A DNA stretch of 64,000 nt, from the NCBI GenBank assembly GCA_963813025.1, contig CAWEXO010000011.1, forward strand, positions 736,001-800,000, given 5' to 3'. The position numbers are program-made. This document shows positions 18,001-21,000 of the stretch, one piece after another. Source of the DNA: an uncultured Verrucomicrobiae bacterium. Lineage in GTDB: Bacteria; Verrucomicrobiota; Verrucomicrobiia; Chthoniobacterales; JAFAMB01. The stretch's first letter is position 1, and each line of letters begins with the position of its first letter.

Positions 18001-21000
18001 CCATTCCGCGCTTGTTACCGCGTCTGCGCTGGCCTTCACGGAGCCCGGATCTGGCGCTCATCTCCGATCTTTCCCTGAACATTTTCCTGGCCATGTCGTT
18101 GATGAGCCTGCAGCTGTGGACGCTTGGTGGACTTGGCCCAGCGCTTGTGGTGGTCCTGGCCATCCAGACGGTAGCCACGGTCGCCTACATTGTGTTTGTC
18201 GTTTTCCCGGCAATGGGTCGCGATTACCTGGCAGCGGTGATTGCCGCCGGGTTCAGCGGCATCAGCCTCGGCGCGACACCGACCGCCATCGCCAACATGA
18301 CGGCGGTCAAGAAGGTCTATGGCGCGGCTCCGACAGCGTTCATCATCCTTCCCCTGGTGTCCGCCTTCTTCATCGACCTCGTCAATGCCTTGGTCATCGG
18401 CTTCTTCGTGCGCTGACCGATGAACGTCTTGGAGTGCGCGCGAACTTGTCGCCGCTTTAGGACCGCGCGGAGCGCGGCTTAGGCCGAGGACGGAACAGCA
18501 AAGCGCCGGTTTCGGGCGAGAAGAGCCCCATACCCGCGCTCCGCGCAGATCTCAAAGCGGCGACAAGTCGCGCGCACTCCAAGACGCTCATCGGCCATTG
18601 GTCATCACCGTGGGCCGTATTCGCAGCATTGTCCGGCCGTAAGATTCCGCGCAAGCGAAGACCGCTTTATACACTTCGCAATAAGGGTCCTTGGCCATCA
18701 TCGTTCCAAGGGCACTGTAGGTTCGCACCGGGCAGCCGCCATGGCAGATCGAAAGATAGCGGCAGGAGAGGCAGTCTTCGTCTTGCACCAAGCGCTTCGG
18801 CCGTTCCACGAAATCTTGCCGCGCCCGGCTCGTTTTCAGCATGCGAGTGAGATCGGGTTCTTGAAAAACGTTGCCGAAAAAATATTCCGGATAGCTGGTA
18901 ACCCAGCAGTCGCACTGGGCAACTGTGCCTTTGGAGTCCACGGAAATAAATTGGTTGGAGCAGTTCTCCTTCCAGATGCAGGGAAGACGCGCCTCTTTAC
19001 CGGTGAAATGATTCATCAACCCGTCAAACGGGCCCGAGGGAAACGCCCTTCCCGTAGCCTCGCGCTATCCAGATATCGAAGAGCCCGACTAAAAAGGCGG
19101 CCAACTCGAGCATATCGAGCTTGAAATCGTCCTCGATTTGTTTTGCCGGACCACCGGGAAACGGGGTATTGACCTGGAAATCCGTCAGACCGAGTTCCTC
19201 GGTGTAATAACGGTAAAATTTTTCCGGACCTGCCTTCAGAGTGGCTTGGTGAAGCACGGCGATCACCCCGATCTCGATCCCGGCCGCTTTGGCCTCATGC
19301 AGCCTTTGTGTCCAGAGCTTGGTGTAGGCCTCCGCGCCGCCTCGGAAAAGCTTGCGATGAACATTGGGATAATCCATCGATGTTCCGAGTGAGCCGTTAA
19401 ACATCCCGTGGATCACGTCATTCCACGCGGGCGAGTAACTGATCAGATTCGTTTGCAGATAGTGAGAAAAGCGCCGTCCTCGCTTCGCGGCGGCGGAGTC
19501 CATAACCTCTCCCGCATGCGCGAACCAGTCGGGTCCCATGATCATCGCCTCGCCGCCCTGCCAGTAAATTTCGCACTCCTCGATGCGCTCTTTCTCCAAA
19601 TGGTCCAGCAAGCGCTTAGTCAACAGAGGGAACAGGCGGGTGACAGACGATGCGGCTCTTTGTGCTCAAAGCAGTAATCGCAAGCGACGTTGCATTCCGA
19701 CGTCGGAAGAAGAATGACGCTGAAAACTCGACCACTCACTGTGTATTTTGCCCCGCCCAGGTCGGGTTAGCTGGTTTGTCGAGGCGCAACCGGCCAGGTC
19801 TTCGACCGATCTCGTTTGCCGCCGCTTGAATGTCGGAAAAGAGCTCTTTTACTCCTTCACAGGAGTAAGCTGGATCCGGCCATTTGAAATAGCCGCGGCA
19901 TGGCTGTTGCCAGGGACAGGCCGCGCATTCAGCGTCCCTGTGCAAGGAGGCTGCTCAAGATGACTCTCGACAAATTCCGCGGGAGCGCCTCCGATTGGTC
20001 CGAACCGAGCCGGAGCGGGGCAACTTGGCCTGTCCATCGATATCGTACTGGAGAAAGAACGGCTGGATCTTCCTCGAGGATCATCCAGAGCGAGCCGGCG
20101 TCAGCGCCACGTAGGCGGTCGCGAGCAGCGAGTGGAAGAACTCCACCGGCGCCTCGACCGCCGGTTCATAAAGATAGAAGTCAGAGCTTCTTTGAGTTCG
20201 GTTAGGGTCGTCGGCGTATGGTTGACCCGGCAATATCCTCGGACTGGAAACCGCAAGGCTCCAGCGAGTTTGACCGCCTTGAGCAAACCGCGTCCAGCCG
20301 GGATGGTCACGCGGACGTCGTGGACTGCGCAGGCATCAACCAATCGGTAGAGGTCCGAAAACTCCGAAGCCGGGTCGGCCAGAACGATGTCAATGGAACG
20401 TCGGAGTCGCTGTGCGCCACCTCCGTCCAGGCATCCGAATCGCCCGACATCCCTTCGACCTGGAGCCACTCCAAACCGGGGAGCGGATCGCCGAGCCATC
20501 GGCAGAGTTCCTCTCGATTCCGGACAATGGCGACGAAGGGCAGATCACCTTGCGTTCTCCGCCAGAGCAGACGGCAAGATCTGAGAGGACGATGATGATC
20601 TTCCTCGGGCACGCAAATTCCAGAGGCTCACTCACCACCGATTGAGCCAGCTGCCCGCGACGTCGGCCACCCCAGCGGTTGATCCACCTACCCCGACGCC
20701 GAGGACCCCAGCGGTTGATCCATCCGCCGCGGCGAGGACCCCAGCGGTTGATCCAAACTCTGCGCATTGGCCTTCGGCGCGGAGGCAAGCCAAGCACGCC
20801 AGCCAGCCCGATCGCCGCAATCGCGGCCCCAGACCATTTTCCCATGCTCCGGAGAAATAGCCGCCTGTTCAGCGACTCTTTTTCGCTGTCGGAGCCTTCC
20901 GTTTCAGAAGAGGGTTGATTATTCATAACATTAAAGGGCGAGGTTCTTATTCTTCATCTTCAGTTCGGCGCCAGAATCGAAAAGTGCATGGCGGCGATAA

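What a model noticed while it worked through the whole genome (the two positions that open the first line are those of the whole stretch)
18588..20926. New RiPP family: Tat-signal precursor with tandem WINRWGPRRGG cores next to an unclassified radical SAM/SPASM maturase
g02681 starts with a twin-arginine signal (NRRLFLRSMGKWSGAA) and then repeats W-I-N-R-W-G-P-R-R-G-G three times; its relatives are about 100 aa long, carry 4-6 such repeats and all end in WxNRW, and 1 kb downstream on the same strand lies a radical SAM/SPASM enzyme (here in pieces: CNVACDYC box in the uncalled stretch, g02680, g02679) whose nearest named kin are the dynobactin and darobactin maturases. I read this as a new family of ribosomal peptides in which the maturase cross-links Trp within each W-x-N(-R-W) unit, giving exported, arginine-rich cyclophane peptides, possibly released as several copies from one precursor. 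If true it adds a darobactin-like chemotype from Verrucomicrobiota, [...]
Evidence so far: Sequences of g02679-g02682 and the three frames of C11:755600-756420. NCBIfam on the pieces: anaerobic sulfatase maturase 65 bits, DynA 64, SPASM domain 58, DarE 52, cyclophane-forming GrrM/XyeB/FxsB/YhhB weaker, all far under their cuts. An intact 387-aa orthologue (L228) scores DynA 144 (cut 450), anSME 146 (cut 349), DarW 120, DarE 108, GrrM 80 (cut 310): no family reached; precursor and the 248-aa protein between them: 0 NCBIfam families. Precursor homologues: 101 proteins of 97-263 aa, 100 of them without any Pfam family; ten read in full: Tat motif RRLFLxS, AxA-type cleavage site, 4-6 repeats, C-terminal W(I/V/L)NRW in 10 of 10; invariant W57 N59 W68 N70 W89 W98 N100 R101 W102. 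Species [...]
(Added by a program. Inside this text positions count along the whole contig: contig position 736,001 is position 1 of the stretch shown here. "Call 12" and the like, gene names such as g00115 and contig names such as C1 are that model's own, and its searches are not shown. The text may have been shortened before it was handed on; [...] marks where a part breaks off. The agent that wrote the report below was given it as the finding of a first reader that could run no searches.)

Follow-up and report, generated by a model that had tools for sequence, protein, structure and literature searches.

The report
Tat-exported tryptophan-repeat peptide with radical-SAM maturase
A four-gene cassette of soil Verrucomicrobia encodes a small exported peptide made of repeated Trp-x-Asn units beside a radical SAM enzyme that most likely staples each unit into a ring, a new variant of a known class of ribosomal natural products.

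Summary
On the minus strand lie a precursor (20926-20632: twin-arginine signal, then four W-[IL]-N-R-W units, the last behind a 1-base frame break), an unnamed 280-aa gene, and a radical SAM/SPASM gene in three frames. The breaks look like assembly errors. Relatives are intact, including cultured Chthoniobacter flavus Ellin428.

The "new RiPP family" reading is partly supported. Precursor and maturase co-occur genome by genome: 28 genomes hold both, 3 only the enzyme, 1 only the precursor, 269 neither. W-x-N is the published substrate motif of triceptide synthases (OscB, XncB). Gly-rich members weakly hit the GrrA/OscA1 model. No named family reaches its cut-off.

New here:
- The middle protein is a degenerate radical SAM/SPASM paralogue with one Cys4 site.
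- A Tat-signalled NTF2/SnoaL-like gene is the precursor's most constant neighbour (39 of 45 loci). Its negative charge tracks the peptide's positive charge.
- "Stand-alone" precursors are extra NTF2+precursor pairs in genomes that hold one full cassette.
- A distant clade keeps the paralogue+enzyme pair beside a W-x-H-W repeat peptide.

Release of several copies from one precursor, and a darobactin-like chemotype, are not supported. I rate it a new variant of a known kind, testable in culture.

The parts
20960..21500 (-). NTF2/SnoaL-like gene with a Tat-type signal in intact relatives. In the window it is split over several frames; the ends given are approximate.
   Evidence: The window ORF 21500..21177 carries ...MGTGPGEIWSGPDELKAAH, and later frames carry ...LIAAMHFS. 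The orthologue L045:9467-9964 hits Pfam SnoaL_3 at E 6e-12. The gene is present directly upstream of the precursor in 39 of 45 loci.
20632..20926 (-). Precursor peptide: acidic N-region, twin-arginine motif RRLFLRS, h-region GKWSGAAIAA..., then four W-[IL]-N-R-W units. A one-base frame break lies at 20656-20658, before the last unit.
20669..20755 (-). 33-nt tandem DNA repeat that encodes the 11-residue units
   Evidence: period 33, 2.5 copies, 88% matches.
19736..20612 (-). Middle gene: a degenerate radical SAM/SPASM-like paralogue. It has no CxxxCxxC motif but an invariant C-x2-C-x5-C-x12-C. At least four frame breaks in the window. Its TGA stop overlaps the GTG start of the maturase.
   Evidence: invariant Cys; best folds: ChlB Z 10.3, anSME 9.9, TigE 9.7, CteB 9.1, each over about 240 residues.
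18588..19739 (-). Radical SAM/SPASM maturase in three frames, with breaks near 19642 and 19035. The CxxxCxxC box is at 19694-19671. The SPASM cysteines lie in the last piece.

Best explanation
This is a ribosomal peptide maturation cassette of four genes on one strand: a Tat-signalled NTF2/SnoaL-like protein, the precursor, a radical-SAM-like paralogue without a SAM cluster, and a radical SAM/SPASM enzyme.

Shown:
- The gene order, its conservation, and the genome-level co-occurrence of precursor and enzyme.
- The fold class of the middle protein.
- The repeat grammar W-[IVL]-N-[RG]-x, with Gly- or Arg-rich spacers.
- The match of the N-terminus to the Tat consensus.

Inferred:
1. In the cytoplasm the radical SAM enzyme abstracts a C-beta hydrogen of each Asn and joins it to the indole of the Trp two residues before. 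This gives one three-residue cyclophane per unit, 4-6 per peptide, as OscB and XncB do on W-x-N.
2. The unusually conserved signal region (RRLFL.S.GKWSGAAIAA) doubles as the leader. The maturase begins directly at its cluster motif, with no N-terminal recognition domain. Either the enzyme or the translationally coupled paralogue may hold the leader.
3. The finished peptide leaves by the Tat pathway, which takes post-translationally matured substrates. It is cut after AxA, or lipidated in the few lipobox variants.
4. In the periplasm the cationic product (net charge about +4 to +13) meets its cognate acidic NTF2-like protein, which acts as carrier, immunity or processing partner.

The function of the product is not known. 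Its composition (G, R, W, N, I/V make up over 90%) resembles Trp/Arg-rich and Gly-rich membrane-active peptides; that resemblance is recalled, not tested.
For: Synteny:
- 27 of 45 loci carry the middle gene and the maturase at fixed spacing after the precursor. One more locus is cut by a contig end after the middle gene.
- Flanking genes are not conserved.

Co-occurrence in 301 genomes of the order:
- Both genes in 28, enzyme only in 3 (one, G613, sits within about 600 nt of its contig's start; the other two matches are partial), precursor only in 1, neither in 269.
- Within the window's own family of 40 genomes the counts are 20/2/1/17, although presence is patchy even within a genus.
- 4 of 5 genomes whose first locus lacked the enzyme hold it elsewhere. 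In two of them the upstream DNA fetched showed the NTF2-like and precursor genes, and one of these also the middle gene.

Distant clade: metagenome locus L055 has an enzyme 41% identical, a middle-gene homologue (29% identical, E 2e-36), a second radical SAM/SPASM gene, and a small ORF of W-x-H-W-G-G units with (RGC)n spacers.

Motif:
- W and N are invariant, I/V/L sit between them, and 115 of 120 homologues carry RRxFL.
- OscB links Trp-C7 and XncB links Trp-C6 to C-beta of Asn at i+2. Dynobactin has a Trp-C6 to Asn-C-beta bond at i+3 (PMC11002830, passages).
- The C. flavus precursor hits the GrrA/OscA1 model at E 3.4e-4.

Enzyme:
- CxxxCxxC and a full SPASM cysteine set are invariant.
- The best peptide-maturase models are DynA 131, DarW 116 and DarE 99 bits.

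Middle protein: radical SAM/SPASM fold over its whole length. Its stop overlaps the maturase start.

Export: TatC is present in this genome (166 bits, cut-off 132.7).

Charge pairing: Spearman rho -0.67 between core charge and NTF2 charge over 35 loci. The trend is the same in five genomes that hold both peptide types.

Coding: third-position excess of differences.
Against: - No chemistry, expression or export has been observed for any member.
- The enzyme's top NCBIfam score is a tie with anaerobic sulfatase maturase (135.6 against DynA 131). GrrM scores only 66.8 against a cut-off of 310. The cross-link type therefore rests on the substrate motif, not on enzyme membership.
- The precursor's tightest neighbour is the NTF2-like gene, not the enzyme. 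Extra NTF2+precursor pairs stand far from any maturase, so the repeats might work unmodified.
- Co-occurrence and charge correlation come from related genomes. The Arg-rich set is essentially one clade, so the number of independent events is small.
- The AlphaFold model of the middle protein is of middling confidence (pLDDT 70.6).
- In this assembly every gene of the cassette is frame-broken. Real decay cannot be fully excluded.
Confidence: 0.6

Rival explanations
1. The same peptide is the substrate but the chemistry differs. Candidates are a Trp-Arg link (as WprB makes on W-P-R), an ether or C-N link, epimerisation, or a modification of Asn or Trp alone.
For: No cyclophane-synthase model reaches its cut-off. 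The enzyme sits in a large unnamed clade: 42 of 63 relatives scanned have no family at E<=1e-48, and the tree groups it in a 39-row clade with support 98. R follows N in 431 of 539 units. WprB shows that Trp-Arg links exist (abstract listed). The L055 relative has H in place of N.
Against: Position 4 is G in 78 units, and position 5 varies between W, R and G. Only W and N are fixed partners. W-x-N is an established triceptide motif. SPASM enzymes nearest by score (DynA, DarE/DarW) make aromatic to C-beta links.
Confidence: 0.2
2. The radical SAM pair does not act on the repeat peptide. It matures the Tat-exported NTF2-like protein, in the way a sulfatase maturase acts before export, or some unlinked target. 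The repeat peptide would then be an unmodified periplasmic or envelope partner of the NTF2-like protein.
For: Anaerobic sulfatase maturase is the top NCBIfam and PDB sequence hit. The NTF2-like gene is as tightly linked as the precursor. It carries an invariant [C/S/T]-G-P-G-E stretch that loosely recalls the C/S-x-P-x-R sulfatase motif (the motif itself is recalled). NTF2+precursor pairs occur without a nearby enzyme.
Against: Thr is the commonest residue at that position. The score is 135.6 against a cut-off of 349. In L055 the paralogue+enzyme pair sits beside another Trp-repeat peptide; only 150 nt of upstream DNA are held there, so an NTF2 gene cannot be judged. The repeat grammar fits a per-unit modifying enzyme. 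Cores have no Cys in all but 2 of the 115 listed homologues for which a core could be delimited, and 1.3% Ser.
Confidence: 0.08
3. In this genome the cassette is a decaying pseudogene cluster and not an assembly artefact.
For: All four genes are frame-broken. No read-level confirmation at useful depth was obtained.
Against: There are about 20 single-base differences in 3 kb, yet the pieces are 93-95% identical in protein to L002. The unrelated neighbour genes are broken in the same way. Genome completeness is only 80% in 16 contigs. The same-genus genome G592 has the enzyme in one open frame of 391 residues.
Confidence: 0.07

Closest known systems
GRRM / Osc triceptide system (GrrA/OscA1 precursor TIGR04260; GrrM/OscB maturase TIGR04261)
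   Same: Both precursors are small peptides whose C-terminal half is a glycine-rich array of short aromatic-x-x units. One radical SAM/SPASM enzyme is encoded nearby. OscB is published to link Trp-C7 to C-beta of Asn or Asp at i+2 (PMC11002830, passages). The C. flavus repeat region aligns to the repeat part of the GrrA/OscA1 profile at E 3.4e-4.
   Different: Both models fall under their cut-offs: 21.2 against 31 bits, and 66.8 against 310 bits. The N-terminal half is a twin-arginine signal, not the GrrA leader; only profile positions 65-118 align. A radical-SAM-like paralogue and an NTF2-like gene are extra. The host is Verrucomicrobiota, whereas GrrA is mainly from cyanobacteria (that range is recalled).
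Dynobactin maturase DynA and darobactin/daropeptide maturases DarE/DarW
   Same: These are the best-scoring peptide-maturase models (131, 98.8 and 116.5 bits). Dynobactin carries a Trp-C6 to Asn-C-beta bond. Like DynA, the enzyme starts at its cluster motif without an N-terminal extension (profile positions 3-348 are matched).
   Different: The scores lie far under the cut-offs of 450 and 650. There is no aromatic-x-aromatic motif, which defines daropeptides in PMC12912966 (passages). There are many repeats per precursor rather than one core. No ABC transporter is present; export is by a Tat signal.
Xenorceptide XYE system (XyeA/XncA, XyeB/XncB)
   Same: XncB links Trp-C6 to C-beta of Asn or Arg at i+2.
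   Different: XyeB scores 44 bits against a cut-off of 450. XYE clusters add a protease and HlyD/ABC export (bioRxiv 10.1101/2024.12.16.628070, passages). None of these is conserved here.
Anaerobic sulfatase maturase (anSME; PDB 4K36)
   Same: It is the top sequence hit in NCBIfam and in the PDB (135.6 bits; 97 bits). It also acts in the cytoplasm on proteins that carry export signals (recalled).
   Different: The score is under the cut-off of 349. True anSMEs fall outside the enzyme's clade in the tree. The peptide cores have no Cys/Ser-x-P-x-R motif.
ChlB, a multiple-cyclophane triceptide synthase (PDB 9GM3/9GMC)
   Same: It is the best structural match of the middle protein (Foldseek E 5e-4, TM 0.54-0.56; Z 10.3 over 245 residues). 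It also matches the maturase N-terminal part by sequence (E 2e-10).
   Different: The middle protein has no CxxxCxxC motif and only one Cys4 site, so it cannot cleave SAM in the usual way. ChlB is a fused enzyme with a further domain, according to the title of reference 51 in PMC12912966.

Membership tests
Radical SAM / SPASM superfamily (the maturase) | CxxxCxxC cluster motif | tested here: met
   CNVACDYC lies at window 19694-19671. C16, C20 and C23 are invariant in 15 orthologues.
Radical SAM / SPASM superfamily (the maturase) | SPASM domain model over its cut-off | tested here: met
   TIGR04085 scores 58.8 bits against a cut-off of 27 on window 19019-18591. Pfam SPASM scores 22.8 against 21.5.
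GrrM/OscB cyclophane synthase (TIGR04261) | Whole-protein score at or above 310 bits | tested here: not met
   66.8 bits for the intact orthologue L045. 35.6 bits for the window piece.
GrrA/OscA1 precursor (TIGR04260) | Score at or above 31 bits | tested here: not met
   The C. flavus precursor scores 21.2 bits, E 3.4e-4, on the repeat region only. The L045 and window precursors give no hit.
Triceptides (three-residue cyclophane RiPPs) | Aromatic1-X2-X3 motifs in a precursor encoded beside a radical SAM enzyme | tested here: met
   Each precursor has 4-6 W-[IVL]-N units. The enzyme is adjacent in 27 of 45 loci. The definition is taken from PMC11499958 (text read).
Triceptides (three-residue cyclophane RiPPs) | An aromatic carbon to C-beta(i+2) bond in the product | not testable with these tools
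   This needs MS and NMR of the modified peptide.
Dynobactin maturase DynA (NF041298) | Score at or above 450 bits | tested here: not met
   131 bits.
Darobactin/daropeptide system (DarE NF038005, DarW NF041300) | Score at or above 650 bits, and an aromatic-X-aromatic core motif | tested here: not met
   98.8 and 116.5 bits. Position 3 of the unit is an invariant Asn.
Anaerobic sulfatase maturase (TIGR03942) | Score at or above 349.45 bits, and a C/S-x-P-x-R substrate | tested here: not met
   135.6 bits. The peptide cores have Cys in 2 of the 115 listed homologues for which a core could be delimited, and no such motif.
Tat (twin-arginine) signal peptide | Consensus S/T-R-R-x-F-L-K (recalled), then a hydrophobic stretch and an AxA site; Tat machinery present in the genome | tested here: met
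   RRxFL occurs in 115 of 120 homologues. R-R-L-F-L is invariant in alignment A4. A small-x-small site lies just before the first Trp in 94 of 115. TatC scores 166 bits against 132.7 in G000.
Tat (twin-arginine) signal peptide | Export that depends on Tat | not testable with these tools
   This needs an export assay in a tat mutant.
SnoaL/NTF2-like (Pfam SnoaL_3 PF13474), the upstream gene | Pfam gathering score of 22 | tested here: met
   46.4 bits, E 6e-12, for L045:9467-9964.

The most novel reading that the evidence does not exclude
The twin-arginine signal peptide is itself the RiPP leader. The SAM-cluster-less radical SAM paralogue acts as a signal-binding proofreading chaperone, analogous to TorD or DmsD for Tat cofactor enzymes. 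It would hold the precursor until every W-x-N unit has been stapled. Tat then exports the cross-linked peptide. In the periplasm a charge-matched NTF2-like protein binds it as a cognate carrier or immunity partner. Each extra NTF2+precursor pair in a genome would be a further matched couple served in trans by the single maturase. On this reading the product is an envelope-resident cyclophane peptide (some variants look lipid-anchored), not a classical secreted antibiotic.
Probability: 0.3. Interest if true: 0.8.

Novelty: new variant of a known kind. Interest (0 to 1): 0.62.

Why it matters
Radical SAM cyclophane peptides include the BamA-targeting darobactin, dynobactin and xenorceptides, so each new branch is of chemical and antibiotic interest.

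This branch is large and unnamed. Every source name seen is generic.

It departs from known systems in how the peptide is handled:
- a Tat signal in place of a leader plus transporter;
- a catalytically dead radical SAM paralogue;
- a periplasmic NTF2-like partner.

I found no paper that joins a twin-arginine signal with a radical SAM RiPP precursor in the library searched, none on Chthoniobacter radical SAM precursors, and none that holds the motif strings. The two key triceptide papers (Nat Chem 2020, JACS 2022) were not held, so they may list the clade.

Cultured carriers exist: Chthoniobacter flavus Ellin428 and Verrucomicrobium sp. BvORR034. The chemistry and the export route are therefore directly testable.

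Tried and rejected
- Complex prediction (maturase + middle protein + precursor, precursor as partner): verdict 'no answer'. The score was not specific against the control in which the maturase was replaced. It is not used for or against binding, and the cap left no second job for pairs.
- The look-up of sequencing runs: one soil DNA run with a share of 0.06. No RNA holder is listed, so nothing can be said on expression.
- Read laying: six short contigs, mostly of relatives, with most of the stretch uncovered. Only the single-base difference at 20658 is mentioned, as a weak hint.
- Promoter and terminator scan of 18300-21900: no promoter-like site. Two terminator-like sites lie inside the maturase gene, fewer than in shuffles. 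Not informative.
- Search for the middle-protein family in 401 genomes of the phylum of G005: found only in G005 itself.
- Phylum-wide sample of 401 Verrucomicrobiota genomes: maturase in 2 only, so the system is confined to a few families of one order among those searched.
- hhalign of the middle protein against the maturase: only the C-terminal Cys-rich part aligns (probability 27%, E 7e-4). This is suggestive but weak; the fold searches carry the argument.
- Supplement of PMC11499958 searched for Chthoniobacter, Verrucomicrob, WxN and OscB: no occurrence.
- Sulfatase-type substrate reading for the peptide: rejected, because no Cys/Ser-x-P-x-R motif exists.
- Release of single units by proteolysis: no protease gene is conserved in the flanks. 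Gly-rich spacers have no common basic site.
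Full report
**What is in the window**

Five features lie in order on the minus strand.

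- A broken NTF2/SnoaL-like gene, at about 21500-20960.
- The precursor, 20926-20632.
- A gene of about 280 codons, 20612-19736.
- A radical SAM/SPASM gene, 19739-18588.

The precursor has an acidic N-region, the motif NRRLFLRS, the stretch GKWSGAAIAA, and then units of W-I-N-R-W plus a Pro/Arg/Gly spacer. Three units lie in the called frame. A fourth (SWLNRW, then stop) lies in the next frame, behind the G-run at 20656-20658. The units are encoded by a 33-nt tandem repeat at 20669-20755.

The maturase is split into three frames. The first carries the CNVACDYC box (19694-19671). The last carries the SPASM domain (TIGR04085 at 58.8 bits against a cut-off of 27; Pfam SPASM at 22.8 against 21.5). 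The stop of the middle gene overlaps the GTG start of the maturase.

**Are the breaks real?**

I aligned the window to the closest relative, L002, which is 83% identical in DNA. The frame changes are single-base differences, several in short homopolymer runs, at roughly one per 130 bases. The protein pieces nevertheless stay 93-95% identical.

- The unrelated GltS-like gene next door is also spread over three frames.
- The assembly is 80% complete in 16 contigs.
- A same-genus genome (G592) has the maturase in one open frame.
- One short contig of a relative in a soil run lacks a base exactly at 20658, but at depth 2.

I read the breaks as assembly errors. Real decay keeps a small probability.

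**The family**

The protein search gave 152 homologues at E<=1e-3. None of the 120 listed has a Pfam family. The grammar is constant.

- About 20 polar or acidic residues come first, then RRLFL(R/Q)(S/G)xGKWSGAAIAA.
- A mildly hydrophobic stretch follows, ending in AxA.
- Then come mostly 4-6 units spaced 10-12 residues apart.

Within a unit, position 1 is W and position 3 is N. Position 2 is I (372), V (145) or L (14). Position 4 is R (431) or G (78). Position 5 is W (252), R (163) or G (81).

The core is 34% G, 19% R, 16% W, 11% N and 11% I+V. It has almost no acidic residues and almost no Cys, and a median net charge of +8. A total of 111 of 120 end in Trp.

Two flavours exist. The window's clade has Pro/Arg-rich spacers. 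The other flavour is Gly-rich, in 55 of 115 listed homologues. That list is ranked by likeness to an Arg-rich query, so it is biased.

Differences between orthologues fall mainly on third codon positions (746/520/1700), so the frame is coding. The signal region is far better conserved than ordinary signal peptides are (invariant R, R, L, F, L, G, K, W, S, G, A, A). This suggests a second role as a recognition sequence.

**Gene context**

A scan of genome contigs returned 45 loci, nearly all from Chthoniobacterales or Terrimicrobiaceae MAGs. Three stand out: Chthoniobacter flavus Ellin428 (L039), Verrucomicrobium sp. BvORR034 (L045) and a Prosthecobacter MAG.

tblastn with the window's pieces shows the middle gene and the maturase at fixed spacing in 27 loci. 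One more locus (L006) is cut off after the middle gene. Seventeen loci lack both genes, and three of those have too little flank to tell.

Of those 14:
- eight are second loci of genomes that hold a full cassette (contig names);
- four more genomes hold the enzyme elsewhere, and in two of them the upstream DNA fetched showed the NTF2-like and precursor genes (one of these also the middle gene);
- one is a 1.2-Mb bin with none found;
- one weak match was not tested.

Clustering all ORFs of the flanks showed no other conserved gene. The one exception sits directly upstream of the precursor, on the same strand, in 39 of 45 loci, including the "stand-alone" ones. This gene hits Pfam SnoaL_3 (E 6e-12) and DUF4440. 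It begins MNRR(E/N)A..AG, again a twin-arginine-like signal.

The stable unit is therefore NTF2-like + precursor. One copy per genome is followed by the middle gene and the maturase.

**Co-occurrence**

In 301 genomes sampled from the order, the maturase was found in 31 and the precursor in 29. Both occur in 28, the enzyme alone in 3, the precursor alone in 1, and neither in 269. Of the three enzyme-only cases, one (G613) lies within about 600 nt of its contig's start, so the upstream genes could not fit. The other two are partial matches.

Within the window's own family of 40 genomes the split is 20/2/1/17, with patchy presence even within one genus. The two genes are therefore gained and lost together. 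Kin are not independent, so I give no p-value.

A phylum-wide sample found the enzyme in only 2 of 401 genomes. TatC is present in this genome.

**The maturase**

Fifteen orthologues are 74-90% identical. The CxxxCxxC motif and a full SPASM cysteine set are invariant.

| NCBIfam model | Score of the intact L045 enzyme (bits) | Cut-off (bits) |
|---|---|---|
| anSME | 135.6 | 349 |
| DynA | 131 | 450 |
| DarW | 116.5 | 650 |
| DarE | 98.8 | 650 |
| GrrM/OscB | 66.8 | 310 |
| XyeB | 44 | 450 |

No family is reached. In the PDB the best sequence hits are anSME (97 bits) and the N-terminal part of ChlB.

Against 1.84 billion representatives there are 112 hits at E<=1e-30. Of 63 full-length hits scanned:
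- 42, including all 32 of the closest (30-49% identity), have no NCBIfam family at E<=1e-48;
- 18 are DynA-like but under the cut-off;
- three have anSME as their best family, and two of these pass its cut-off.

A quick maximum-likelihood tree rooted on those anSMEs places the family (support 100) inside a 12-row clade (98). That clade lies inside a 39-row unnamed clade (98), apart from most DynA-like rows. The enzyme therefore belongs to a large unnamed branch of SPASM peptide-maturase-like enzymes.

**The middle protein**

It has no Pfam or NCBIfam family, and 792 homologue clusters. Its only invariant cysteines form C-x2-C-x5-C-x12-C near the C-terminus. There is no CxxxCxxC motif.

- hhalign lines this Cys stretch up with the CxxCx5C...C part of the maturase's SPASM domain, weakly (E 7e-4, probability 27%).
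- The AlphaFold model (pLDDT 70.6) is a beta/alpha half-barrel plus a helical C-terminal part.
- Foldseek's only hits under E 1e-3 are the four ChlB chains (TM 0.53-0.56).
- An all-against-representatives alignment puts ChlB (Z 10.3), anSME (9.9), TigE (9.7) and CteB (9.1) on top. Each aligns over 234-247 residues, whereas generic TIM barrels align over about 120.
- The ESM Atlas holds a more confident model (pLDDT 0.85). Its neighbour clusters include one auto-named radical SAM, one with SPASM on 17% of members, and one with Radical_SAM on 42% of members. These are leads only.

I conclude that it is a degenerate radical SAM/SPASM paralogue that keeps one auxiliary-cluster-like site. Its role (leader binding, electron relay, scaffold) is inferred, not shown.

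**A distant relative**

One metagenome contig (L055) carries four relevant genes.

- An enzyme 71% identical to P0364, which is about 41% identical to ours.
- A clear homologue of the middle protein directly upstream (29% identity, E 2e-36, same Cys motif).
- A second radical SAM/SPASM gene.
- A small ORF whose C-terminal half repeats W-(I/V/N)-H-W-G-G followed by (R-G-C)n.

The paralogue+enzyme pair therefore travels with Trp-repeat peptides across deep divergence. This is the best independent support that the peptide is the substrate.

**Chemistry**

I read passages of a review (PMC11002830). It states the following.

- OscB links Trp-C7 to C-beta of Asn or Asp at i+2.
- XncB links Trp-C6 to C-beta of Asn or Arg at i+2.
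- Dynobactin has Trp-C6 joined to Asn-C-beta at i+3.

PMC11499958 (text read) defines triceptides by aromatic1-X2-X3 motifs. PMC12912966 (passages) defines daropeptides by aromatic1-X2-aromatic3. It also states that the two enzyme groups share an origin.

Here only W-x-N is invariant, so the triceptide register is the parsimonious prediction. The C. flavus repeat region also hits the GrrA/OscA1 model below threshold (21.2 bits against a cut-off of 31). Because no synthase family is reached, the bond type stays an inference.

**The NTF2-like partner**

Across 35 loci the net charge of the NTF2-like domain falls as the charge of the adjacent peptide core rises (Spearman rho -0.67).

- Partners of Arg-rich cores (+10 to +13) have a net charge of -12 to -21, and most have acidic C-terminal tails.
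- Partners of Gly-rich cores (+4 to +9) have -2 to -9.

In five genomes that hold both peptide types, the difference runs the same way. The Arg-rich set is essentially one clade, so this may be one evolutionary event. It is still what a direct, matched interaction would predict.

**Other variants**

Three loci (L025, L027, L034) have ...LTSC before the first unit in place of AxA. This is lipobox-like, and it hints at a lipid-anchored form.

**What is not supported**

- No protease, transporter or conserved cleavage site accompanies the cassette. Release of several copies from one precursor is therefore speculation.
- The family as a whole is not arginine-rich.
- The kinship to darobactin rests on sub-threshold enzyme scores only.

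**Literature**

I found no paper in the held library that joins twin-arginine signals with radical SAM RiPP precursors. None links Chthoniobacter with radical SAM precursors, and none holds the motif strings. The primary triceptide papers (Nat Chem 2020; JACS 2022) were not held. The supplement of PMC11499958 has no mention of this clade. The clade may nevertheless appear as an uncharacterised node in those authors' similarity networks.

**Verdict**

The cassette is best read as a triceptide-like radical SAM RiPP system with an unusual handling apparatus: a Tat signal as leader, a dead radical SAM paralogue, and a charge-matched NTF2-like periplasmic partner. It is a new variant of a known kind, widespread in soil Verrucomicrobia, and testable in cultured strains.

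Noticed in passing
window 18414-18477 and 18534-18597: A long nested inverted repeat, with arms of 30, 15 and 22 nt at 82-100% complementarity. It spans the 3' ends of the convergent maturase and GltS-like genes. It could be a bidirectional terminator, a repeat element or an assembly artefact.
   Followed up: partly
window 17179-18460 (+): A GltS-like sodium/glutamate symporter gene is spread over three overlapping frames, like the cassette genes. This points to a high indel error rate in this assembly.
   Followed up: partly
L042:10291-12285: The middle gene and the maturase read through as one 665-residue open frame. This is either a natural fusion or a long-read assembly error. In most other loci the stop and start overlap or abut.
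   Followed up: no
L025, L027, L034 (precursor ORFs near 10001-10309 and 1160-1468): These precursor variants have ...WLTSC-VGSW in place of the AxA site. The stretch is lipobox-like, so these may be Tat-exported lipopeptides. One further case is P0088.
   Followed up: partly
L055:151-477, 959-2050, 2056-2856, 2853-3983: A distant cassette with a W-x-H-W-G-G/(RGC)n repeat peptide, two radical SAM/SPASM genes and a middle-protein homologue. The Cys-rich spacers suggest a second kind of cross-link.
   Followed up: partly
L022:10536-11115: Directly after a 'stand-alone' precursor, tblastn finds a weak maturase-like stretch (32% over 151 residues, E 9e-14). It overlaps a glycosyltransferase-like ORF in another frame. 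It could be a decayed or divergent maturase.
   Followed up: no
L039:10310-10400 (C. flavus Ellin428): The conserved N-terminus of the middle protein (MSEEPN...) lies in a different frame from the rest of the gene, across a C/G-run. This is a draft-sequence error or a true frameshift in the cultured strain.
   Followed up: no
P0366, P0375 (about 690 aa), P0391 (950 aa), P0483, P0500 (about 700 aa): Several 28-41% identical relatives of the maturase are fused to a second long region. In P0366 and P0375 that region carries another Cys-rich, radical-SAM-like stretch.
   Followed up: no
window 21896-22552 (-) and 22622-23530 (-): Upstream on the same strand lie a 218-aa ORF that I recall as Kdo-hydroxylase-like and a 302-aa ORF with the histidine boxes of a fatty acid desaturase. 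They are not conserved next to the cassette in other loci.
   Followed up: no
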